Source of the DNA: an uncultured Alphaproteobacteria bacterium
GTDB lineage: Bacteria; Pseudomonadota; Alphaproteobacteria; CAAHEQ01; UBA3637
Assembly: GCA_944391735.1 (NCBI GenBank)
Contig: CALXUR010000001.1
Coordinates: forward strand, 14,924-78,923
Length of the DNA stretch: 64,000 bases
Direction of reading: 5' to 3'
A model generated the notes under the pieces. It ran no database searches. It saw nothing but the letters and a program-made list of their open reading frames with translations, and was not told where the DNA came from. Shown here in pieces: positions 1 to 14,550 of the stretch. How positions within the stretch are numbered: position 1 is the stretch's first letter; each line of letters begins with the position of its first letter. The position numbers and the translations under genes are program-made.

Positions 1-813
1 TTGTCTGCAGAGATAGTAAAATCATTAAAGTTATTATTTCCTCCTTTACCTGAGCAGGAGAAGATTGCGGGGATATTGGGGACATGGGATGAGGCGATTG
101 AAAAGCTGTCCGGTTTGATAGAGCAAAAGAAACTCCTTAAAAAAGGTCTGATGCAAAGACTCTTAACCGGCAAAACCCGCCTCAACGGCTTCACCCAACA
201 TTGGCAAAAAATAAGATTAGGAAAAATTGGAACAACATATACTGGTTTAAGTGGAAAAAATAAGGATGATTTTGGTAAAGGTGCCTATTTTATCCCCTAT
301 ATGAATATTTATCAAAACAACAAAATTGATCCAAAACAGTTGGAACTTGTTGATATTTCCGATAACGAAAATCAAAATACTGTTCAGTATGGTGATATAT
401 TTTTTACAACATCGTCTGAAACACCTGAAGAAGTTGGATTCGCTTCTGTTTTACTTTTCAAACCTGAACAAAAAATATACCTTAACAGTTTTTGCTTTGG
501 CTACAGGTTAAATGATTTTGATACATTATTACCTAATTACGCATCTTTTCTATTTCGTTCAAATCAAATACGTAAAACGATGTATAAATTGGCACAGGGA
601 GCCACTCGCTTCAATTTATCCAAAAATGAATTAATGAAGGAGGAACTTTACATTCCTTCTGATATTTCTGAGCAACAAGCCATTGCTGATGTCTTATTGA
701 CTGCAGATGATGAAATCAACCTCTTAAACCAAAAATTAGAAGCTTTGAAGGAACAAAAGAAAGGCCTAATGCAACAGCTCCTCACCGGCCAAATCAGAGT
801 GAAAGTGAACTGA
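1..813 (+). CDS. hsdS: Type I restriction-modification specificity subunit HsdS (5' end outside window)
   Basis: The ORF is open from the window edge. It carries conserved HsdS helices 'LPPLPEQEKIAGILGTWDEAIEKL' and 'EQQAIADVL...LKEQKKGLMQQLLTGQIRV' flanking a variable target-recognition domain. Confidence 0.85.
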   Translation: MSAEIVKSLKLLFPPLPEQEKIAGILGTWDEAIEKLSGLIEQKKLLKKGLMQRLLTGKTRLNGFTQHWQKIRLGKIGTTYTGLSGKNKDDFGKGAYFIPYMNIYQNNKIDPKQLELVDISDNENQNTVQYGDIFFTTSSETPEEVGFASVLLFKPEQKIYLNSFCFGYRLNDFDTLLPNYASFLFRSNQIRKTMYKLAQGATRFNLSKNELMKEELYIPSDISEQQAIADVLLTADDEINLLNQKLEALKEQKKGLMQQLLTGQIRVKVN

Positions 814-819
814 AAGGAA

Positions 820-1179
820 ATGGATATTGTAGATAATGCCAAAACCATATATGCACTAGTAAAAAAATTAGGTGATCTTGATTTATTGGAAAAAATGGCT
901 GACCTAAGAGATGAAATTTTCGAATTACGTGAGGAAAATAGAAATCTAAAAGAGAAATTAGCTGAAAAGAATAACTATGAGATGCATTTTAAGCACAATA
1001 TGTACTGGAATCCTGATGAAAAAGATGGCCCTTATTGTTCAAAATGTTGGGATGACAATAAAAAGGCTATTCGTTTACAAAAACAGAATGGAGAATATTA
1101 TTGTCCTGTTTGTCGTAAGACCGTATTAAAAGAAATCGTTGATATCACACCAATTAAATACGATAATTCAGAATGGTAA
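820..1179 (+). CDS. Hypothetical coiled-coil / zinc-ribbon protein inside the type I R-M operon
   Basis: The ATG lies 7 nt after the hsdS stop. The protein has a charged helical N-terminus (LREENRNLKEKLAEK) followed by two CxxC pairs (CSKC...CPVC). No family recognised. Confidence 0.55.
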   Translation: MDIVDNAKTIYALVKKLGDLDLLEKMADLRDEIFELREENRNLKEKLAEKNNYEMHFKHNMYWNPDEKDGPYCSKCWDDNKKAIRLQKQNGEYYCPVCRKTVLKEIVDITPIKYDNSEW

Positions 1180-1183
1180 AAAA

Positions 1184-2134
1184 ATGAAAACAGATGTATA
1201 TTTTGCACGCAAAGATGATTTTGGTTTAATCGCTTATGAAAATGGCATTAAGCAGAACATTTTCATGCAAATTGCCGCTGTTGATTATGCTCCTCAAGTT
1301 AATGAAATTATTATTTGTGATGCAAAATATGACATTAAGGAACTTATCGAAAAATATTATGAATTTGAAATAAGAGAGAAGAAAAAATTAGATATTGGAT
1401 GGAAGTACAAACACATTTGGAAACCATTAATGAATATCCACATAGAAAGAGAACTTGATATTACACAAAGTGAATTGTTTCATGCAAAGAGAGACTTAGG
1501 CATTTTAATCCAAAAATTACAAGAGATTTTGTTATTTATAGAACCTTCAGAAGATGGTCTAAAAGCATATAGCCATAAAATTAGAGAATTACTTTTTTTA
1601 GCATGTTCTGATTTAGAAAGTACTTTTAAAAAGTATAAGTTTGGCAAAAATGAACGGATGAATAATTATATTGAAATTTTAAAATTTGTTGATTTAACAA
1701 AATATAAGATTTCATTGGTTGGATATGCAAAACCTTATAAGTGTTCTCCTTTCGAAAAATGGAATGAGAAAGAACCTGCAAAATCATTAGATTGGTATGA
1801 TGCATACAATAAAATCAAGCATAATAGAGAGGATAACTTTCACTTTGCAACATTAGAAAACTGTATTAATGCTATTGCAGCTAATCTGATTATGTTTGCT
1901 GTTCGCTTTTCACCAACAACATTATATAATGAAAATGATGTTTGTTCTAATTTAGCACGAAGTGCTTTAGAATACAAAATAGAGAATAGCAAAGATTTTT
2001 ATATTCCTGTATTTGAAGGAGAACGCAAACATTTTGACACTTATATGTCTTGCAGATTTAAAAACGGAAAAGTCCTGCCTGATATTTATAAAACTTATCA
2101 TGTATTACCTTACGAAGAAAGGCCGTTAAAATGA
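1184..2134 (+). CDS. Hypothetical protein (316 aa) between hsdS and hsdR; weak HEPN-like R-x4-H motif
   Basis: The ATG lies 5 nt after the previous stop, and its stop overlaps the hsdR start (ATGA at 2131-2134). 'YNKIKHNREDNFH' contains R-E-D-N-F-H spacing. No P-loop is present. Confidence 0.55.
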   Translation: MKTDVYFARKDDFGLIAYENGIKQNIFMQIAAVDYAPQVNEIIICDAKYDIKELIEKYYEFEIREKKKLDIGWKYKHIWKPLMNIHIERELDITQSELFHAKRDLGILIQKLQEILLFIEPSEDGLKAYSHKIRELLFLACSDLESTFKKYKFGKNERMNNYIEILKFVDLTKYKISLVGYAKPYKCSPFEKWNEKEPAKSLDWYDAYNKIKHNREDNFHFATLENCINAIAANLIMFAVRFSPTTLYNENDVCSNLARSALEYKIENSKDFYIPVFEGERKHFDTYMSCRFKNGKVLPDIYKTYHVLPYEERPLK

Positions 2135-5100
2135 CACAACAATACATTCTTCCTGATTTTGATGAAGCTAGCAGTTCCCAAATCCCTGCAATTTTGCAGT
2201 TGATTAACTTGGGATATACCTATATTTCACGTCATGAAGTTGAAACTCATCGTGATGGCAAAAATCAATATATCTTGCGTGATATTGCACACCAAGCCCT
2301 ACGTAAAATTAATCCATCAGAAATATCTGATAAAAGTATTGATGAAGCCTTGTTTGCGTTGGAAAAAATTAAACTGGATGATGGTGTAGTTAAAGCCTCG
2401 GAAGACGTGTTTTCTGATTTGTTGGGGGGACGTGCTGTTTCTGAGATTATTGATGGGAAACGTACTTCTCCACAGCTTAAATTTATTGATTGGAAAGAGC
2501 TAAGTAATAATGTCTTTCATGTAGTAGCAGAGTTTGAACTGGAAGAAGATCAAAATCGCAGACCAGATATTGTTTTGTTTGTTAATGGTATTCCCTTTGC
2601 GGTTATTGAAAACAAAAAGGCCTCTGTTTCTGTGGATGAAGCTATTACACAGATGATACGTAACCAGAAATACTCCCAAACACCAAAGTTCTTTTTGTTT
2701 CCACAAATCTTGATTGCAACCAATGTTAACCAAATTAAATATGGAACTATGCTAACTCCATTTGAGTTCTACTCTGTTTGGAAAGAAAAGGAAGCTCCAA
2801 AGGATTATGAAAAAAATGTGTTGGAAAGTGTCAATAAGCCTGTTGATGTAAAAACTGTGGCTCAAATTGGGGAAGATTTGTTGAGGAGCTCCTACAAGCA
2901 AGCGAAAAAACAAACTTTAACAGCACAAGATTATGGAATTTATAGCTTATTAAAGCCAGAAAGATTATTGGATTTAGTCCGTAATTTCATCATCTATGAC
3001 AATGGCATAAAGAAAATCACCCGCTATCAACAATATTTTGCCATTAAAAAGACAATTGCCAAAATTCAAACAATGAATGAAAATGGTAAAAGACGCGGTG
3101 GCTTAATTTGGCATACCCAAGGAAGTGGTAAATCTCTGACGATGGTTATGCTTGTTAAAAATTTGATTGAAACGATTACCAATCCGCGCGTTATTGTTGT
3201 AACAGACAGAATAGATTTAGATATTCAAATTCGCGATACTTTTGCTGCTTGTAATATTAAAACAGGTGTTCAACAAGCAACATCGTGCTCCGATTTAGTT
3301 AAAAAGATTAAATCTAAAACTTTGGATGTTATTACAACTTTGGTTCACAAATTTGATAAGCCGACCAATTTTGTAGACGAGGATAACAATATATTTGTTT
3401 TAATTGACGAAGCACATCGAACTCAAGGCGGTGATGCCAATGCAATGATGAATAAAATGTTGCCAAGGGCTTGCCAAATTGCTTTTACAGGAACTCCGTT
3501 AATGAAAAAAGTTCCGGCCAGATTGGAAGGGAAAGTTATCTCTAAATCGCAATCGATTCAAAAGTTTGGTGGATTGATTGATGAATACACGATTTCGGAA
3601 GCCGAAAAAGATGGAGCGGTATTACCTCTTATCTATCAAGGACGTTTTGTTGATCAAAAAATTGATAAAATTGCAGATAAATTTTATGAACGGTTAGCCT
3701 CAAGATTCTCGGAAAGTGAACGTAAGGATTTTGCCAAGAAGTGTATTTCTTCTTCGGTTTTAGAGGAAACATCACAACGTATTGAAATGATTGCTTTGGA
3801 TGTAAATGATCATTTCTTGAAAAACTTTAAGAACACAGGTCTAAAAGGACAGTTGGTTGCTCCGAGTAAATATGCGGCTGTTATGTTTAAAAAAGCGCTG
3901 GAAATGTTGGGGAATATCAACGCAGAAGTCGTTATATCCGATACATTGGCCGAAGAAGGTAAGGATGATGTTAACTCAACCCATAAGAAGCTGGTAACTG
4001 AATATATGGCCGAACAAAAACACAAATATGGTTCCTTAGAAAGCAGAGAAAAACAAATCATTCAGGATTACAAGAAAAATCCAGAAGGATGTGAATTACT
4101 TATTGTTGTGGACAAACTTTTGACTGGTTTTGATGCGCCAAGGGATACTGTTTTGTATTTAGCCAAACAACTGAAAGATCATAACTTGTTACAGGCAATT
4201 GCTCGTGTTAACCGAGTTTTTGATGGTGATGCAAATAAACAAAGTAAAACAGCAGGCTTAATTGTAGATTATTCTAAAAACGCAAAAAACCTAAAAAATG
4301 CATTGGAACTGTTTTCAAACTATGCTCCTGAAGATATTGAAAATGCTTTATTGGATACAGAAAGCCAAATTGCACTTTTGAAGAACATATACACACGTCT
4401 ACACGATGTGTTAAAAAATGTTACTGACATTAATAATAGTAATGCCTACGTAGAATTTTTAGCAGATAAAGCTCATGAAAAGGAAAAAGAGGCATTCTAC
4501 GATGATGTTAATAAATTCATTAAACAATTTTCTGTTTGTTACTCTTTGTATGATTTTCATGATAAAATGGATCAAGATACTTTAGAGATTTACAAAAAAG
4601 ATCTGAAACGTTTTGTTGAAATCAAAAAAACAACCCAACTTGTGCTGGCAGAAAAGGTCGATTTTTCAAAATATAAAGACCAAATTATGAAATTACTGGA
4701 TAAATATGTCAGCGCAGGCGATGTTGAGGTGTTGTCTAAAGAAATTAGTTTGTCTGATATGCATGAATTTAATCAGTATATTGAAGATGAAAACAATGGA
4801 TTATCGGATAAATCTAAAGCTGATGCTATTTTAGCACAAACAAGAAAAGTTTTAAGAGAACGCTATGAGCTTCAAGATGAAGTCTTTTATGGGAAATTTA
4901 GTGAATTTATTGAAAAGCTTCTAAATGACTTGAAAATTGCAAAAAAAGAAGATTTGGCCTCTCTACTAAGTCAGGCAAAAGAAATACAAAAAAAAGTGAG
5001 TGATTATGAAGATAATGATATTCCTCAAAATATGAGAAACGCCAAGGTATATCATCCTTTTTATCGAAATATTCAAAAGTTTTTTACAACAACCGGAGAC

Positions 5101-5313
5101 GCTTATACACAAATTATTGAACATATCGTTGGCTTAATAAAATCTTCAAAAGTGGTAGATTTCCAAAATAATTTGAATGTAAAAAGAAAGATCTTTAATG
5201 AGCTGGAAGATTATTTGTTTGATGAAGTAGACGAAAAATTGTCTGCAGATACAATTGAACAAATTACAGAAACTGCTTGGAATATTGTGGTTCAAAATAA
5301 GGATATGCTCTAG
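2131..5313 (+). CDS. hsdR: Type I restriction enzyme R subunit HsdR
   Basis: Nuclease block 'RPDIVLFVNGIPFAVIENKK', helicase motif I 'HTQGSGKSLTM', motif II 'LIDEAHRTQ', 'FTGTP' and motif VI 'QAIARVNR'. Length is 1060 aa. Confidence 0.95.
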   Translation: MTQQYILPDFDEASSSQIPAILQLINLGYTYISRHEVETHRDGKNQYILRDIAHQALRKINPSEISDKSIDEALFALEKIKLDDGVVKASEDVFSDLLGGRAVSEIIDGKRTSPQLKFIDWKELSNNVFHVVAEFELEEDQNRRPDIVLFVNGIPFAVIENKKASVSVDEAITQMIRNQKYSQTPKFFLFPQILIATNVNQIKYGTMLTPFEFYSVWKEKEAPKDYEKNVLESVNKPVDVKTVAQIGEDLLRSSYKQAKKQTLTAQDYGIYSLLKPERLLDLVRNFIIYDNGIKKITRYQQYFAIKKTIAKIQTMNENGKRRGGLIWHTQGSGKSLTMVMLVKNLIETITNPRVIVVTDRIDLDIQIRDTFAACNIKTGVQQATSCSDLVKKIKSKTLDVITTLVHKFDKPTNFVDEDNNIFVLIDEAHRTQGGDANAMMNKMLPRACQIAFTGTPLMKKVPARLEGKVISKSQSIQKFGGLIDEYTISEAEKDGAVLPLIYQGRFVDQKIDKIADKFYERLASRFSESERKDFAKKCISSSVLEETSQRIEMIALDVNDHFLKNFKNTGLKGQLVAPSKYAAVMFKKALEMLGNINAEVVISDTLAEEGKDDVNSTHKKLVTEYMAEQKHKYGSLESREKQIIQDYKKNPEGCELLIVVDKLLTGFDAPRDTVLYLAKQLKDHNLLQAIARVNRVFDGDANKQSKTAGLIVDYSKNAKNLKNALELFSNYAPEDIENALLDTESQIALLKNIYTRLHDVLKNVTDINNSNAYVEFLADKAHEKEKEAFYDDVNKFIKQFSVCYSLYDFHDKMDQDTLEIYKKDLKRFVEIKKTTQLVLAEKVDFSKYKDQIMKLLDKYVSAGDVEVLSKEISLSDMHEFNQYIEDENNGLSDKSKADAILAQTRKVLRERYELQDEVFYGKFSEFIEKLLNDLKIAKKEDLASLLSQAKEIQKKVSDYEDNDIPQNMRNAKVYHPFYRNIQKFFTTTGDAYTQIIEHIVGLIKSSKVVDFQNNLNVKRKIFNELEDYLFDEVDEKLSADTIEQITETAWNIVVQNKDML

Positions 5314-5997
5314 ATGATTGATATGGATAACATTAAGGTTGTTAAAGAAAAGCGCAAATCTCTAGCAGTGGAAGTTTATCCTAATTTTACTGTTCTAGTA
5401 AAATCACCAGAACAAGCAAAAGATTTTGAAATCAAAGATTTTATTAAGAGAAAAACAACCTGGATTGAAAAACAATTAAATTATTTTAAACAGTTCAATA
5501 TGCCCGAAGATAAAGTCTATGAATCTGGTAGTTCGGCGCTATATTTAGGACGTCAATATCAGGTCATTATTGAGAAATCACCATTGCGCAATATTATAAA
5601 GGTTCTAAACAATAAAATTTATATTTTAACTCCCTCACCGCAAAAATTGGATGAAATTAATCATGCTTTGCAAAATTGGTTTATAAGGCGTGGTGAAACT
5701 ATTTTTAATGAACGTCTGAATTTTTGCATGAAAGCATTTCCTGATTTAAAGATGCCAAAATTAAAGATAAGAAAACTTAATAAGCGCTGGGGCAGTTATT
5801 TAAAAAAACATGAAATTGTTCTTAATCCAGCTTTAATTAAAGCTAGTAAACAATCTATTGATTATGTTATTTATCATGAGCTTTGTCATGCATATTACCC
5901 AAATCATACAGATGAATTTTATAATCTTCTTTCTCTTAAGATGCCTAACTGGGAAAAGATAAAAGAGAAAATGGAGTTAAAATTATTAAGTTATTAG
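5314..5997 (+). CDS. YgjP-like (DUF45 / M48-type) zinc metallohydrolase
   Basis: 'RWGSYLKKHEIVLN...IDYVIYHELCHAYYPNHTDEFYNLL' is the HExxH block typical of YgjP-family genes that follow hsdR. The ATG directly abuts the hsdR stop. Confidence 0.85.
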   Translation: MIDMDNIKVVKEKRKSLAVEVYPNFTVLVKSPEQAKDFEIKDFIKRKTTWIEKQLNYFKQFNMPEDKVYESGSSALYLGRQYQVIIEKSPLRNIIKVLNNKIYILTPSPQKLDEINHALQNWFIRRGETIFNERLNFCMKAFPDLKMPKLKIRKLNKRWGSYLKKHEIVLNPALIKASKQSIDYVIYHELCHAYYPNHTDEFYNLLSLKMPNWEKIKEKMELKLLSY

Positions 5998-6478: not shown

Positions 6479-7240
6479 GTGAACAATGAAATAATAAAAA
6501 ATATAAGCATACAAGAGCAACAAACTTCAATGCTCGAATTTATTGAAAAATCAATAAAAAAAATAAATCAAACACCATGTAGTTATAAAGAAAAAATAAT
6601 TTTAGATTGGGAACTGCGCAGAGAAGAGGCCTATAAAACATTTTTACTTCTTTATAAAAATGAACGTTTTTACGATGCAATGATTATTGCTGGTTATATT
6701 TTCGAATTATCATCTTTAATACATGATGTAACAAATATAAAGAAGACAGATCCTTACGATAAACATTTTATGATGTATGCCATTTCAAATCTTGAAACAA
6801 TTTTATTACAATGTGATTTACCAAATTGGAAGGTTACTCCTAAATTGCAATGTAAATATGCGGATTTTATCCAAATGTTGGAAAATGCTATTGAAAAAAT
6901 TCCTAATGAACCGGGTATAAAAAATGTGGATTGGAAAGGAATAATAGTTAAACTTAAAAATAAAAATATTAAAAATAGTAACAAAGTTGAACTATTAAAG
7001 CAAAACTACAAGGCTCCATCTATAAATATTCAAATAACACAATTTTTAAAATTTATGAAAAAGAAAATTAATAAAACAAACGATCCGTTCATTATGGGAA
7101 ATGAAAATTTATTTAGATTGGGCTATCAAACATACTGTATTTTAAAACATAATGGAATAGCTGCGTTTGATTTAGAAGAAGCATATATAAAACAAAGTAG
7201 TTTGTTTTTAGCATTTTGTCTTAAATATTTTGCATCATGA
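6479..7240 (+). CDS. Hypothetical protein (253 aa, Lys/Asn-rich)
   Basis: A long ORF with a GTG start 8 nt after an AAGGA. No motif recognised. Confidence 0.45.
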   Translation: MNNEIIKNISIQEQQTSMLEFIEKSIKKINQTPCSYKEKIILDWELRREEAYKTFLLLYKNERFYDAMIIAGYIFELSSLIHDVTNIKKTDPYDKHFMMYAISNLETILLQCDLPNWKVTPKLQCKYADFIQMLENAIEKIPNEPGIKNVDWKGIIVKLKNKNIKNSNKVELLKQNYKAPSINIQITQFLKFMKKKINKTNDPFIMGNENLFRLGYQTYCILKHNGIAAFDLEEAYIKQSSLFLAFCLKYFAS

Positions 7241-7441
7241 TTCCGTACTTTTCCATTTAGCGATCATTTGTTCCAATTTATGAGATAGACGATTGATTTC
7301 GTATTTGTATTTAATCGGTAGCGCTGGGGTGTTAAGTCTGCTCAGTCGTCTGTCCAGTCTATCAAGTACTCTAATTGCATGGTTATAAACCATCGGCATG
7401 CTGATTTTGTAATTTGGAGGAATGTCATTATAGTGTTTCAT
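7235..7441 (-). CDS. Hypothetical small protein (68 aa)
   Basis: An ORF in a minus-strand string of small genes, with helical, basic composition. No family recognised. Confidence 0.35.
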   Translation of the reverse strand: MKHYNDIPPNYKISMPMVYNHAIRVLDRLDRRLSRLNTPALPIKYKYEINRLSHKLEQMIAKWKSTES

Positions 7442-7522
7442 TTTCTACTCCCATGTATCGGCAATAACTTGAACCGGAAGGATCGACATAAAGCGTTGGC
7501 TTGTTGGAGCATTTTATAGCAA

Positions 7523-7741
7523 CTACTTTCGGTGGCCTGTATCATCATAACCGCCTTTACCGGATAAGAAAATGTAGTTATCCAATGGGCGTTGGCAAAA
7601 CTCCTCATACCAAGTTGGTGGTAGGTTGACAGTTTCTTCAATTAAGACCTCTTCGGCCTCATGCGTATACTTTTTGCATAAAGTTTTTACTTCCTCAAAA
7701 TCCGAAGGTTTTCGCACCATATAAACTTTAACTGTATTCAT
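7523..7741 (-). CDS. Hypothetical small protein (72 aa)
   Basis: Its ATG overlaps the stop of the upstream small ORF (ATGA at 7738-7741). Composition is protein-like. Confidence 0.4.
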   Translation of the reverse strand: MNTVKVYMVRKPSDFEEVKTLCKKYTHEAEEVLIEETVNLPPTWYEEFCQRPLDNYIFLSGKGGYDDTGHRK

Positions 7742-7908
7742 TTGGAAGCCTCTTTTATTTTTTGTATTTCTGTTTTTAATTTTTTGTTTTCTTCTTCTAC
7801 GGCTTCAATTTCGCTCATATATGCCCAAGTGCCATCTTCATCGCAAATAGCAATGCGAGCATCAAAATCAGGCGCTTCTTTTGTTTCGTGATACCATGTT
7901 ACTGTCAT
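7738..7908 (-). CDS. Hypothetical small acidic protein (56 aa; not in the ORF track)
   Basis: Hand translation gives MTVTWYHETKEAPDFDARIAICDEDGTWAYMSEIEAVEEENKKLKTEIQKIKEASK. Its stop overlaps the start of the 7523..7741 ORF. Confidence 0.35.
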   Translation of the reverse strand: MTVTWYHETKEAPDFDARIAICDEDGTWAYMSEIEAVEEENKKLKTEIQKIKEASK

Positions 7909-8651: not shown

Positions 8652-9980
8652 GTGACTCAAAATTTTAATACGGCCGACAGTATGGGACGTTTAATGCTCA
8701 ATGTTTTACTATCTTTTGCTCAATTTGAACGCGAAATATCCGGCGAGCGCATTCGGGATAAAGTAGCTGCCTCGCGTAAAAAAGGTATGTGGACAGGGGG
8801 CCGACTCCCCCTCGGATACGATGTTGTGAACAAAAAACTGATTATTAATCAAAAAGAGGCAGAAATTGTGCGCTATATTTTTAATCGGTATCCAGAGGTT
8901 CCTTCGGAGCTGATTATTGCTAACGAACTGAACGAAAAAGGTTGGCATCCGAAATTAAGAAATGCAACAAATACACCTTCTGTATTTCAGGCAAGCAATA
9001 TTTCTGCCATAATACAAAACCCCATTTACATCGGAAAAATAAAGTTTCATAATGAGTTATATGACGGTATTCATCAACCGATCATTGAAAAAAGTATTTT
9101 TGAAAAAGTAAATAAAATCAAAAAACAAAAGAATCCGGGAAGACCAAAACATCCTGAATACAAAGATGATGGTTTATTAAAAAATTTAATCCAATGCGGA
9201 TGTTGCGATAGTCCCATGCATATAACCACAATTAAACGTGGCCCAAAACGTTATCGGTATTATATCTCTGATATTGCTGAAAAGAAAGGACATAGCCACT
9301 GCGACATTGCACAAGTCAATGCCGGTGAGTTTGAAAATATTATTTTAAAAACAATCAAGCCTCTCTTTAAAACAACAAATTTTATTCAAACATTGGCAAA
9401 TGAAACCAAAAGCATTGATCTCGCTTGTCAAGAACGTGAGGTGTTTGATGCCATGAGTGATTTTGAAGAGGTTTTTGCGGGATTAAGCCTGTCAGCACGC
9501 CGAGAAATCCTACATCTGTTAATTTGTAAGATTATTGTTTATCCAGATCATATTCTGATTGATTTTAGAAACGCCACACGAGCAGTTATGCCACAAAAGA
9601 TGTTGGAATCCTTAGAACCTGGGATAAACATGATAAAAGTCCCTTATTGTTTAATTAAAAAAAGAGGTAAAACAGTTTTGTTATCTGCTCAAATGACAAA
9701 GACAGAAACAGACCAAGCTCTTATAAAAGCGATTGTCCGTGCATTTCAATGGACAAAAACAATGGAGACAGAAGGAATTACCCAAAAAGAACTGGCTAAA
9801 AGAGAGCACATTAATTGTGGATATCTTGGGAAAATCATGCGTCTGACAATTCTGGCACCGAATATTATTCAAGCTATTTTAGAGGGGAAACAACCAACTT
9901 ATCTGACAGTGGATACTTTTATGCGCAATGTTATCCCTTATCGTTGGGATGAACAACGAATCAAGTTTAAATTTAAGTAA
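8652..9980 (+). pseudogene. Large serine recombinase lacking the N-terminal catalytic Ser region
   Basis: The ORF begins in the distal part of the resolvase domain ('GRLMLNVLLSFAQFEREISGERIRDKVAASRKKGMWTGGRLPLGYD'). It continues through the recombinase domain and Zn-ribbon (CGCC...HC). About 90 aa, including the nucleophile Ser, are missing. Confidence 0.75.
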
Positions 9981-12861: not shown

Positions 12862-13388
12862 ATGGATTTAAGTTATATAGAACAATATAGGTTACTTTAT
12901 AAAAACAAGCCAAGATATGGGAAGACTTCTTTATCGTTGTTTCCTATTGTGGCACCGTTAATACGACAAATGGGTTGTTCTGAAATTTTAGATTATGGTT
13001 GTGGGCAGAGCCAACTTGCTGATGTTTTGGAGAAAAAATTGAACGTATTCGTATATAAATATGATCCAGCGATTGCCAAATTTTCTATCCTTCCAACAAG
13101 AAAATTCGATTTTGTAATTTGTACAGATGTTTTACAACATATTCCAATTAAGGATTTAAATGAAGTTCTTTTACAAATAAAAAAATATTCATCTAACTGT
13201 TTTTTTATATTAAGTGTTCAAAACATCATACATTATTACCCAACGGCATGTTGGCAAATTGTACAGTTCATTCACCAAAATGGTGGCAAACCAGACTAGG
13301 CCTTTTTTTTAATATTGTTACAAAAATGCCTACGGAAGATAAAACGATTGCCTCTTTTGTAACAAAAGGAGTTCATAATGACTTATAA
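12862..13388 (+). pseudogene. Class I SAM-dependent methyltransferase, frameshifted at a T7 run
   Basis: Motif I 'ILDYGCGQSQLA' and 'FDFVICTDVLQHIP' are present. After the T-run at 13200-13206 a sensible C-terminus ('YIKCSKHHTLLPNGMLANCTVHSPKWWQTRL...') continues in the other frame to a stop at 13386-13388, overlapping the next ATG. Confidence 0.7.
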
Positions 13389-14550
13389 TATTCATATTAG
13401 AGATGAAATATTTGGTGGTACGGTTTTAAACTTGATTACAGGAAAGAGAGAATATGTTAATGAACAAGAATTATCTGATATCCTTGTATATAATAGATTT
13501 CCTACCAATTCTATTACTAAAAATATAGATCAGCATCATTATATTAAACATATTTCTATAGAGGATAGTAAAAAAATTAAGAACGGATTTAGTTTTGCTG
13601 ATGTAGCATTTATTGAATTAACCAGAGCGTGCAATTTAAAATGTCCTCACTGTTTAAACAATTCTGGTTCAAAACAAAATTCTCAAATGTCTTTCAGAGA
13701 AATTACAGAGCTTATTAAAGAACTGGCCTGTGCCGGACTGCAGGAAATCAGATTTACGGGTGGAGAACCGCTATTACATCAAAATCTTTATGATTTTATC
13801 CAATTAACAACTGATTTGGGACTATATTCATCTTTGGGAACAAATGGAACTCTATTAACTGAGGAAGTTGCGCTAAACTTAAAAAAAGCAGGATTAAGAA
13901 AAGCTGTGGTCAGTATTGATGGCACTCAAGAGCAACATGATAAAATCAGGGGGACTGGAAATTATACTAAATCATTTAATGCCTTATATTATTTAATAAA
14001 AAATGATATAGATGTACGTATTAATTCAGTGCTTATGAAATCTAACATGAAAGATATTATTGATTTTGCGAAACAAGTTCATGATAAGAAAATTTTACTT
14101 TTTATTAGACGATTCATAGAATCTGGAAGAGGGAGTTCTTTAAAAAACAATATGTTAAGCAAAAAAGATTATGATTATGTTAGACAAAGTTTAAGTAATG
14201 AACTTGAAACTGGAGGATATGTTAATGGTCACTATTTACGAAATGATGAGGGAATACATCCTCGAATTTCACTGCCATTTAAAATTAAAGCTTGTAAAGC
14301 AGGACAACGAGCATTAGCAATTATGCCTAATGGTGACATACACCTGTGTGGTTTTTTGGCGGCTCAAAATTTTCCGGCAGTTAGCAACATAAGAGAAATT
14401 CATGATTGGTCTTTGTTTTGGAAAAATCTACAAGCGTCAGATCAATTATCTGATTTATATAATAATTTAGATAAATATAATAGTGTTCCTGGTATTCAAA
14501 CAACCTATTGTTTGGCATATGTGCAAAATTTTTTAAATAAGAGGCAATAA
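13378..14550 (+). CDS. Radical SAM enzyme (PqqE-like core) with N-terminal extension and twitch/SPASM-like C-terminal region
   Basis: The CX3CX2C motif sits in 'ELTRACNLKCPHCLNN'; 'RFTGGEPLL' and 'GTNGTLL' are also present. The C-terminus has 'CKAGQRALAIMPNGDIHLCGF' plus one more Cys. An extension of about 80 aa precedes the cluster motif. Confidence 0.85.
   Translation: MTYNIHIRDEIFGGTVLNLITGKREYVNEQELSDILVYNRFPTNSITKNIDQHHYIKHISIEDSKKIKNGFSFADVAFIELTRACNLKCPHCLNNSGSKQNSQMSFREITELIKELACAGLQEIRFTGGEPLLHQNLYDFIQLTTDLGLYSSLGTNGTLLTEEVALNLKKAGLRKAVVSIDGTQEQHDKIRGTGNYTKSFNALYYLIKNDIDVRINSVLMKSNMKDIIDFAKQVHDKKILLFIRRFIESGRGSSLKNNMLSKKDYDYVRQSLSNELETGGYVNGHYLRNDEGIHPRISLPFKIKACKAGQRALAIMPNGDIHLCGFLAAQNFPAVSNIREIHDWSLFWKNLQASDQLSDLYNNLDKYNSVPGIQTTYCLAYVQNFLNKRQ

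What the first reader, a model, noticed from the sequence alone, without database searches (positions are those of the whole stretch)
820..2134. Two unknown, translationally coupled genes wedged between hsdS and hsdR
The operon is packed very tightly. hsdS stops at 813 and the next ATG is at 820. That ORF stops at 1179 and the next ATG is at 1184. The second ORF's stop overlaps the hsdR ATG (ATGA at 2131-2134). The slot between the specificity and restriction genes is where the anticodon nuclease prrC sits in the E. coli prr locus, and restriction-linked ('rlo') genes occupy comparable slots in other type I loci. Here the cargo is different. One gene encodes a 119-aa coiled-coil protein with two CxxC pairs. 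The other encodes a 316-aa protein with no P-loop whose only suggestive motif is 'YNKIKHNREDNFH' (R-x4-H spacing as in HEPN RNases). This may be an R-M-guarded abortive-infection or backup toxin module of an undescribed type.
Basis: partly seen in the sequence, partly recalled or inferred. Interest (0 to 1): 0.6.

Follow-up and report, generated by a model that had tools for sequence, protein, structure and literature searches.

The report
Two independent cargo genes in restriction operon
Two real but unnamed genes sit between the specificity and restriction genes of a type I restriction operon; they are not a pair, and the larger one belongs to a very large uncharacterised family that keeps turning up in phage-defence hotspots, so it is a good but untested candidate for a new single-gene anti-phage defence.

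Summary
Gene A (820-1179, 119 aa) and gene B (1184-2134, 316 aa) are packed between hsdS and hsdR exactly as described, and both evolve under purifying selection.

- A and B are not a module. A occurs in this slot without B in 5 of 9 resolved contexts, and B usually occurs without A.
- The proposed R-x4-H is not conserved, because H220 varies. The conserved motif is W-Y-x-A-Y-N-x-x-K-H-x-R.
- No Pfam, NCBIfam, PADLOC or PDB match exists.
- Fold search shows only a weak, non-significant likeness of the helical core to HepT HEPN toxins.

B belongs to a family of about 3,000 clusters (50% identity). One long-branch clade is almost always embedded between hsdS and hsdR. Within near-identical operons B is swapped as a cassette. 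Other clades sit in the P2 prophage gpA-gpQ defence hotspot and next to AIPR, KAP NTPase and R-M genes.

Best reading: B is an autonomous defence effector with a fast-evolving beta part (putative sensor) and a conserved, enzyme-like helical core. A is a zinc-ribbon/coiled-coil protein specific to this slot, of unknown role.

The scan met the B family before in five other genomes.

The parts
1..813 (+). 3' part of hsdS. The full gene is 406 aa and starts upstream of the window.
   Evidence: Pfam Methylase_S 2e-15. The full gene is L081 7517-8737, Methylase_S 5.6e-33.
814..819 (+). 6-nt spacer AAGGAA (Shine-Dalgarno-like) between the hsdS stop and the gene A start
   Evidence: Read directly from the sequence.
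820..1179 (+). Gene A: a 119-aa protein with an N-terminal coiled coil and a C-terminal CxxC...CxxC zinc ribbon. It is a sporadic cargo gene specific to this slot.
   Evidence: ORF. Four Cys plus G70, P71 and W77 are invariant in 21 homologues. PHROG 1244 at 2.4e-10, function unknown. Every context examined is in the hsdS->hsdR slot. Absent as a clean indel in L003 and L008. dN/dS 0.16-0.38.
1184..2134 (+). Gene B: a 316-aa member of a large unnamed family (PHROG 19461). Candidate single-gene defence effector.
   Evidence: ORF. PHROG 19461 at 5.9e-40. 3,005 clusters at 50% identity. AF2 model pLDDT 92.6. Embedded clade. dN/dS 0.05-0.21.
1184..1423 (+). B residues 1-80: fast-evolving N-terminal beta-rich part (putative sensor or recognition part, together with the C-terminal strands)
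   Evidence: DSSP strands at 2-75. 59% identity to L003 against 89% for the core, although hsdR is 99% identical.
1433..1972 (+). B residues 84-263: conserved helical core carrying the conserved polar residues E120, H131, K132, R134, E135, E143, E145, D161, N209, K212, H213 and R215
   Evidence: Alignments. Core-only model pLDDT 92.5. Weak likeness to HepT HEPN toxins, TM up to 0.54 with E>1.
1793..1828 (+). Signature motif W204-Y-D-A-Y-N-K-I-K-H-N-R215. W204, Y208, K212 and H213 are invariant across 118 diverse members.
1973..2131 (+). B residues 264-316: fast-evolving C-terminal beta strands
   Evidence: DSSP. 49% identity to L003.
2131..5313 (+). hsdR (1,060 aa). Its ATG overlaps the gene B stop (ATGA).
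   Evidence: Homologues carry the Pfam domains HSDR_N, ResIII, SWI2_SNF2 and T1R_D3-like. 98-100% DNA identity to L003, while B is 69-86% identical.
5314..5997 (+). YgjP-like metallopeptidase gene, the constant last gene of this operon family
   Evidence: Pfam YgjP-like 1.3e-47. Present after hsdR in nearly all related loci whose sequence reaches that far.

Best explanation
Window 820-2134 holds two separate cargo genes in the hsdS->hsdR slot of a cargo-laden type I R-M operon. The operon reads half-hsdS, hsdM, Fic, SieB-like, hsdS, A, B, hsdR, YgjP-like. It lies on a mosaic island of a small-genome gut alphaproteobacterium.

Gene B is the main item. It is a member of a very large, unnamed, horizontally mobile family that most likely acts as an autonomous single-protein anti-phage (abortive-infection-type) effector. 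The conserved helical core (residues ~84-263) carries an invariant polar cluster: N209, K212, H213, R215, R134, E143, E145. I infer that this is the catalytic part, most plausibly a nuclease or RNase with a HEPN-like helical topology but a non-canonical motif. The fast-evolving N- and C-terminal beta parts are inferred to recognise the trigger.

In this clade B is co-transcribed and translationally coupled with hsdR. It is therefore made alongside the restriction enzyme as a second defence layer, and it is exchanged as a cassette between operons.

Gene A is an independent coiled-coil zinc-ribbon protein found only in this slot. Its role is unknown; a regulator or adaptor of the operon is possible.

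Shown: gene reality, family size, embedding, cassette swapping, independence of A and B, hotspot contexts, and absence of a canonical HEPN motif.
Inferred: defence function, enzymatic core, sensor role of the beta parts.
For: Operon make-up:
- Defined.
- The same operon family carries known defence cargo. The B slot also holds Shedu and a Panacea antitoxin-domain gene. The hsdM|hsdS slot holds RhuM, TIR, CBASS, DUF1016 and Fic.

Embedding of B:
- 26 of the 28 best loci in species genomes place B between hsdS and hsdR.
- Together with the window, these 27 form one clade on a 1.84-long branch with aLRT 100. One non-embedded locus, L026, lies inside that clade.

Cassette exchange:
- The L001 B is 80% identical to the window's, but its hsdR is only 34% identical. 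The L008 B is 60% identical, but its hsdR is 98% identical.
- Against L003, hsdR and YgjP DNA are 98-100% identical while B is 69-86% identical, with a sharp boundary at the B/hsdR junction.
- dS between the B alleles is about 1.4.

Domains:
- The core is 87-89% conserved against 49-59% for the beta parts in that background.

Stand-alone relatives:
- In the P2 gpA-gpQ hotspot of phage SEN8 and of an E. coli C21 prophage. The hotspot is defined in PMC9122126.
- On 45 IMG/VR contigs, at least 10 of them beside a P2-type portal gene.
- Next to AIPR + helicase + T5orf172, KAP NTPase, type I R-M and type IIG R-M genes.
- Upstream neighbours include NucC, PifA, MADS and PDC-M11B.

Distribution and literature:
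- Patchy: 1 of 9 other species in the same genus, 0 of 15 in the other genera of the family searched.
- Embedding as a predictor of defence: Payne et al. 2024.
- 6 of 8 randomly chosen unknown loci in P4 hotspots protected against phages: PMC13586616.
Against: - No experiment was done, and no match to any validated defence family exists. PADLOC gave no family hit for the window protein, and only three weak single-member hits (E>=1.6e-4) among 118 members scanned.
- The enzymatic nature of the core rests only on conserved polar residues.
- No fold match has E<1. hhalign to DUF4145 and HepT gives probabilities of at most 1.3%, and the motifs are not superposed.
- Most stand-alone loci have ordinary neighbours.
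- The strict slot fidelity of the embedded clade could instead mean a role inside the R-M machinery.
- Nothing is known about the function of A.
Confidence: 0.5

Rival explanations
1. A and B together form a two-gene toxin/antitoxin or abortive-infection module held in check by the R-M complex.
For: The spacing is tight: 4 nt between A and B, and the ATGA overlap with hsdR. A directly precedes B in four A clusters: the window, P0128, P0143/L022 and P0127.
Against: A sits in the slot without B in five clusters: P0144, P0129, P0137, P0133 and P0135. Of the 26 other embedded B loci, 25 lack A. A is a clean indel in otherwise near-identical operons. Stand-alone B has no recurrent neighbour.
Confidence: 0.08
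2. In the embedded clade, B is an accessory or regulatory subunit of this type I R-M lineage and not an independent defence. It might act as a guard that senses inhibition of HsdR, as PrrC does, or as a modulator of restriction or restriction alleviation.
For: Near-strict placement between hsdS and hsdR, kept even when hsdR is only 33-34% identical. A long, well-supported branch separates the embedded clade, and its N-terminal part differs from the rest of the family. The stop/start overlap with hsdR recurs.
Against: Homologues over the full length function outside any R-M context, in P2 hotspots, on plasmids and next to other defence genes. L026 lies inside the clade but is not embedded. Operons with 98-99% identical hsdR tolerate B alleles that are 60-75% identical, which argues against a tight co-evolved interface.
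Confidence: 0.17
3. B is a canonical HEPN RNase that uses R215-x4-H220.
For: The window sequence reads YNKIKHNREDNFH. HepT HEPN toxins are the only recurring family in the core-only fold search, with 14 of the top 50 hits and a best TM of 0.54.
Against: H220 is not conserved, and R215 is about 90% conserved. No HEPN Pfam family is hit by about 170 members. Foldseek E-values are 1.6-4. hhalign does not align the motif, although the positive control (HepT against DUF4145) also reached a probability of only 3%.
Confidence: 0.05
4. B is not a defence gene. It would be a selfish or mobile-element-benefit gene (addiction, exclusion of competing elements, or a phage counter-defence or host-takeover factor) that hitch-hikes in variable loci.
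For: It is carried by temperate phages and plasmids. Many stand-alone loci have unremarkable neighbours. Variable hotspots also hold non-defence morons.
Against: Embedding inside R-M operons together with Shedu, TIR, CBASS and Fic cargo. Location in the P2 locus that holds old and tin. Published high hit rates for unknown genes in such loci.
Confidence: 0.15

Closest known systems
PrrC (EcoprrI locus) and RloC anticodon nucleases embedded in type I R-M operons
   Same: A single cargo gene placed between type I R-M genes and co-expressed with them. Payne et al. cite PrrC as a system found almost only embedded in type I R-M.
   Different: No sequence or domain relation. B has no P-loop/ABC ATPase domain and no PADLOC (PrrC) hit. 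Most of the B family lives outside R-M operons, so latency enforced by the R-M complex cannot be a general requirement.
Guilt-by-embedding candidates (HEC/PDC) of Payne et al. 2024, and TgvAB embedded in the V. cholerae VPI-2 type I R-M
   Same: The same genomic logic: unknown genes nested in type I R-M operons that turn out to be defence systems.
   Different: B matches none of the HEC or PDC models in PADLOC-DB v2.0.0. The window protein had no hit, and 118 members gave only three weak single-member hits. That copy does contain PDC models. B is not GmrSD-like.
HepT/DUF86 HEPN toxins of HEPN-MNT systems (e.g. PDB 7ae2, 7ae8, 8xeh) and the R-M-linked HEPN family DUF4145
   Same: An all-helical core of similar size. 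HepT chains are the only recurring family in the core-only fold search (TM 0.41-0.54). The spacing Y205-x3-N209-x3-H213 mirrors R-x3-N-x3-H of DUF4145.
   Different: Not significant (E>1). There is no conserved Arg at the HEPN position, where Y or F stands instead. Profile comparison gives probabilities of at most 1.3%. B has additional beta parts.
PHROG 19461 (phage protein family of unknown function)
   Same: B matches it at 5.9e-40 over residues 70-278. A BFVD fragment of a Siphoviridae protein superposes with TM 0.77.
   Different: The family carries no functional annotation, so membership adds no information on function.
old/tin and other systems of the P2 gpA-gpQ defence hotspot (Rousset et al. 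2022)
   Same: Stand-alone B homologues occupy exactly this locus in phage SEN8 and in E. coli prophages.
   Different: No homology to old, tin or any system in PADLOC. The B family has not been tested.

Membership tests
HEPN superfamily | Conserved R-x4-6-H catalytic motif | tested here: not met
   R215 is about 90% conserved, but H220 is variable. The invariant residues are W204, Y208, K212 and H213, and the position equivalent to the HEPN Arg is Y or F.
HEPN superfamily | Four-helix up-down bundle core similar to solved HEPN domains | tested here: inconclusive
   Core-only model, pLDDT 92.5. HepT toxins recur, with a best TM of 0.54 normalised to the target, rmsd 6.2 and E=2.0. Nothing has E<1. 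The whole-protein search gave 7ae8 at E=1.7.
HEPN superfamily | Sequence-profile similarity to a HEPN family | tested here: not met
   No HEPN Pfam hit for the window protein or for 56+58 members. hhalign against DUF4145 gave probability 0.07%, and against HepT 0.6-1.3%. The control between two true HEPN families gave only 3%, so this test has low power.
PrrC/RloC anticodon nucleases | Gene located inside a type I R-M operon next to hsdS/hsdR | tested here: met
PrrC/RloC anticodon nucleases | N-terminal ABC-ATPase (P-loop) domain and homology to PrrC | tested here: not met
   No ATPase or any other Pfam domain, and no PADLOC hit at E<=1.
PADLOC HEC/PDC embedded defence candidates | Match to a PADLOC-DB v2.0.0 model | tested here: not met
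   0 hits for B and only a spurious LmuB hit (0.0094) for A. 118 family members gave three weak chance-level hits.
PHROG 19461 | Profile match | tested here: met
   5.9e-40 over residues 70-278. Function unknown.
Two-gene toxin-antitoxin / Abi module (A+B) | Obligate co-occurrence of the two genes | tested here: not met
   A occurs without B in 5 of 9 resolved A clusters. B occurs without A in 25 of the 26 other embedded loci.
Zinc-ribbon proteins (gene A) | Two conserved CxxC pairs | tested here: met
   C73, C76, C95 and C98 are invariant in 21 sequences. Only sub-threshold Pfam zinc-ribbon hits. Metal binding was not tested.
Type I R-M operon (context) | hsdM, hsdS and hsdR present and contiguous | tested here: met
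   N6_Mtase 2.2e-104 and Methylase_S 5.6e-33. hsdR domains seen in homologues.

The most novel reading that the evidence does not exclude
The B family is a new, very widespread single-protein abortive-infection system. It would have a previously unseen fold combination (a variable beta sensor wrapped around a helical core) and a new catalytic signature, N-x2-K-H-x-R with E143/E145 and R134. The R-M-embedded clade would be specialised as a PrrC-like guard that fires when phage anti-restriction proteins disable HsdR. Gene A would be a zinc-ribbon adaptor that tunes this slot.
Probability: 0.25. Interest if true: 0.75.

Novelty: new member of a known kind. Interest (0 to 1): 0.55.

Why it matters
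Genes nested in restriction operons and in prophage hotspots have repeatedly turned out to be new immune systems. Examples are PrrC, TgvAB, the HEC systems, and six of eight unknown P4-hotspot loci that were tested.

The case for B:
- It has about 3,000 clusters at 50% identity across many phyla.
- It is absent from Pfam, NCBIfam, PADLOC and the PDB.
- It has a confident predicted structure with no known relative.

If it defends against phages, it would add a common single-gene system and possibly a new enzymatic motif. E. coli alleles are already available for testing.

The allele swapping of B inside otherwise identical operons resembles hsdS target-domain swapping. It gives a natural series of alleles for mapping what the variable part recognises.

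The result also corrects the idea that A and B form a toxin pair.

Tried and rejected
**Searches that found nothing**
- Pfam, NCBIfam and PADLOC scans of A and B found nothing above threshold.
- Pfam scans of 56 and 58 diverse B members, and a PADLOC scan of 118, found no family.
- PDB sequence-profile searches with two profiles gave zero hits at E<=10.
- Foldseek of the whole model against the PDB gave nothing significant. The top hits were sliding clamps on about 83 columns.
- Foldseek against BFVD gave only one homologous fragment.

**HEPN tests**
- I used the second structure job and the last fold search on the helical core alone. This gave only a weak HepT signal.
- hhalign against DUF4145 and HepT alignments built from genome hits was negative, but the positive control showed low power.

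**Partners, fusions and literature**
- I looked for a conserved partner of stand-alone B among 92 upstream neighbours and found none.
- I looked for informative domain fusions. P0064 (441 aa) looks like a chimera with a Hint/terminase-like N-terminus, and the others have only longer N-termini.
- I checked whether the new P4-hotspot systems (Bandua, Aernus, Toga, Reve, Crouga, Hailong) could be B. They carry named domains, so they are not.
- A in phage collections gave only weak relatives. IMG/VR relatives of A (32-34% identity) sit just before a small-terminase-like gene, which does not explain its role.

Full report
**1. The observation**

- The hsdS frame stops at 811-813.
- Six bases (AAGGAA) later, gene A opens at 820 and ends at 1179 (119 aa).
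- Four bases later, gene B opens at 1184. Its TGA at 2132-2134 overlaps the hsdR ATG at 2131 (316 aa).
- hsdR runs to 5313, and a YgjP-like metallopeptidase gene follows (Pfam 1.3e-47).
- No convincing terminator or above-chance promoter lies between these genes.

Both ORFs are real genes.
- A has 22 homologous clusters.
- B has 148 homologous clusters at 90% identity and 3,005 at 50% identity with E<=1e-3, of which 835 have E<=1e-30.
- dN/dS is 0.05-0.21 for B and 0.16-0.38 for A.

**2. The operon as a whole**

The window starts inside hsdS. In the genome (contig C1) the upstream DNA (L081) completes the operon:
- a half-size hsdS;
- hsdM (N6_Mtase, 2.2e-104);
- a Fic + wHTH gene;
- a SieB-like gene;
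- hsdS, then A, B, hsdR and the YgjP-like gene.

So there are two cargo slots, hsdM|hsdS and hsdS|hsdR. Related operons in gut metagenome bins fill these slots with known defence modules.
- hsdM|hsdS slot: RhuM, a TIR protein, CD-NTase + Cap15 (CBASS), DUF1016/YhcG and Fic.
- hsdS|hsdR slot, next to B: Shedu (SduA_C, 8e-23) and a Panacea antitoxin-domain gene.

This is the 'embedding' pattern of Payne et al. 2024 and of TgvAB in Vibrio cholerae.

**3. Gene B: family and distribution**

B has no Pfam, NCBIfam or PADLOC hit, even at E<=1. It matches only PHROG 19461, of unknown function (5.9e-40).
- Scans of 56 and 58 diverse members against Pfam found nothing.
- A scan of 118 members against PADLOC found nothing. 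That PADLOC copy does contain the PDC/HEC candidates, since a neighbour in L026 hit PDC-M11B.

In one genome per species, 146 loci encode a relative and 79 were kept. Of the 28 closest loci, 26 place B between hsdS and hsdR. On a tree these form one clade with the window. One non-embedded locus, L026, lies inside it. The clade sits on a long branch (1.84, aLRT 100).

The clade spans gut Alphaproteobacteria, Melainabacteria and Elusimicrobia. Among relatives of the host genome, B was found in 1 of 9 other species of the genus and in none of 15 other genera of the family that were searched.

**4. B is a swappable cassette**

The phylogeny of B disagrees with that of hsdR.
- The closest B (L001, 80% identical) sits beside an hsdR that is only 34% identical.
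- L008 has a 98% identical hsdR but a B that is 60% identical.

Against L003, the hsdR and YgjP DNA is 98-100% identical and the hsdS 3' end is 93% identical. B is only 69-86% identical, with a sharp boundary at the B/hsdR junction. dS between the two B alleles is about 1.4.

In the L003 comparison the helical core is conserved (89% identical). The N- and C-terminal beta parts are not (59% and 49%). This is the pattern expected of a conserved effector joined to a diversifying recognition part. It parallels hsdS target-domain swapping in the same operons.

**5. B outside R-M operons**

The remaining clades are stand-alone genes without a recurrent partner, but defence contexts recur.
- L029 follows hsdR-hsdM-hsdS of a different type I family.
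- L031 follows AIPR, a helicase and T5orf172.
- L032 follows a KAP NTPase.
- L068 follows a type IIG R-M enzyme.
- Other neighbours include NucC, PifA and MADS genes.

In Salmonella phage SEN8 and in E. coli prophages (16 of 5,426 genomes), B lies between gpA and the portal gene gpQ, next to cos. This is the P2 hotspot that carries old and tin (Rousset et al. 2022, PMC9122126).

Forty-five IMG/VR contigs carry the family, at least ten of them beside a P2-type portal gene in two different lineages. A 2026 study found that six of eight randomly chosen unknown loci in P4 hotspots protected against phages. None of its named systems fits B (PMC13586616).

**6. Structure and the HEPN question**

AlphaFold2 gives a confident model (pLDDT 92.6) with three parts:
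- beta strands at residues 2-75;
- a helical core at ~87-261;
- beta strands at 262-313.

H220 is variable and R215 is about 90% conserved. Across 118 diverse members the conserved residues are as follows.
- Invariant: P121, W193, W204, Y208, K212, H213.
- Nearly invariant: R134, E143, E145, D161, Y162, Y205, N209.

The signature is W-Y-x-A-Y-N-x-x-K-H-x-R. The spacing Y205-x3-N209-x3-H213 mirrors the R-x3-N-x3-H of DUF4145 HEPN domains, but with Tyr or Phe in place of Arg.

The searches gave no significant match.
- Foldseek of the whole model found nothing significant.
- A second model of the core alone (pLDDT 92.5) again gave no hit with E<1.
- HepT HEPN toxins were the only recurring family, with 14 of the top 50 hits and a best TM of 0.54.
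- hhalign against DUF4145 and HepT alignments gave probabilities of at most 1.3% without superposing the motifs. The control between those two true HEPN families reached only 3%, so the test is weak.

Verdict: a HEPN-like topology is possible, and canonical HEPN membership is not supported.

**7. Gene A**

A is a coiled coil followed by a zinc ribbon. C73, C76, C95, C98, G70, P71 and W77 are invariant. It matches PHROG 1244, of unknown function.

In all ten A clusters examined, A lies in the hsdS->hsdR slot of this operon family.
- In four clusters it lies directly before B: the window, P0128, P0143/L022 and P0127.
- In five clusters there is no B: P0144, P0129, P0137, P0133 and P0135.
- One cluster was unresolved.

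Relative to L003 and L008, A is a clean insertion between the hsdS stop and the B start. Of the 26 other embedded B loci, only one also has A. A and B are therefore independent cargo and not a toxin-antitoxin pair.

Distant phage relatives of A (32-34% identical) sit between a late-regulator-like gene and a small-terminase-like gene. This does not reveal a function.

**8. Conclusion**

The best-supported reading is that B is an autonomous, mobile, single-gene defence effector. In one clade it has settled in the hsdS|hsdR slot, where it is co-expressed with hsdR as a second layer.

The chemistry is unknown. I lean towards a nuclease or RNase with a non-canonical, HEPN-like helical core. That step is inferred, not shown. 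A guard function like that of PrrC remains possible for the embedded clade only. A is a separate small protein specific to this slot, of unknown role.

The scan met the B family before in five other genomes. Two earlier follow-ups reached the same general reading. New here are:
- the independence of A and B;
- the allelic cassette replacement of B;
- the failure of the R-x4-H motif, and the true conserved signature;
- the core-only fold test;
- the family size.

Noticed in passing
L081 5992-7527 (own genome, just upstream of the window; G000:C1 ~12991-14526): The hsdM|hsdS slot of the same operon holds a Fic/DOC + winged-helix gene (352 aa) and a SieB-like superinfection-exclusion gene (158 aa). 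In L003, which is otherwise about 95% identical, the SieB-like gene is replaced by a different 173-aa gene.
   Followed up: partly
L081 3868-4485 and equivalent ~205-212-aa genes in L003-L028 and L085-L087: A half-size hsdS gene (one target-recognition domain, Methylase_S 1.4e-7) precedes hsdM throughout this operon family, so each operon has one half and one full specificity gene.
   Followed up: no
window 5314-5997: A YgjP-like/SprT-like metallopeptidase gene directly follows hsdR here and in nearly all related operons whose sequence reaches that far, whatever the cargo. It looks like a constant, unexplained component of this type I lineage.
   Followed up: partly
L081 85-1335 and window 8652-9980: Serine-recombinase genes flank the operon on both sides, and the downstream one is N-terminally truncated. 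Together with the phage-like small ORFs at 7235-7908, this places the R-M operon on a mosaic mobile island.
   Followed up: no
L026 7036-7407 and 7995-8945: The one member of the embedded clade that is not in an R-M operon sits just downstream of an ASCH-domain gene that matches PADLOC candidate PDC-M11B at 2.3e-46.
   Followed up: no
L088 128-2142 (phage SEN8) and L090 6001-7568 (E. coli C21 prophage): In the P2 gpA-gpQ hotspot, the B homologue is accompanied by a convergent HNH endonuclease gene in one prophage lineage. In another P2-like lineage (L179-L181) B sits right next to the portal gene, and no SEN8-type HNH gene was detected there.
   Followed up: partly
L140 4836-6033 and L141 4347-6185 (IMG/VR contigs): Distant homologues of gene A (32-34% identical, same coiled coil + CxxC...CxxC) lie immediately upstream of a small-terminase-like gene. 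In L141 the homologue also lies downstream of an ArpU/RinA-like late regulator.
   Followed up: no
P0064 (441 aa, metagenome protein): This is a B-clade protein whose first ~165 residues look like a terminase/Hint (intein-like) fragment. It is probably an assembly chimera or a broken gene and not an informative fusion.
   Followed up: no
L094/L095 and L190/L191: Other unnamed genes recur in the hsdS|hsdR slot around gene A: a 214-aa protein, a 223-aa protein, and a Vpar_1526-family protein of 356-375 aa. They are further untested cargo candidates.
   Followed up: no
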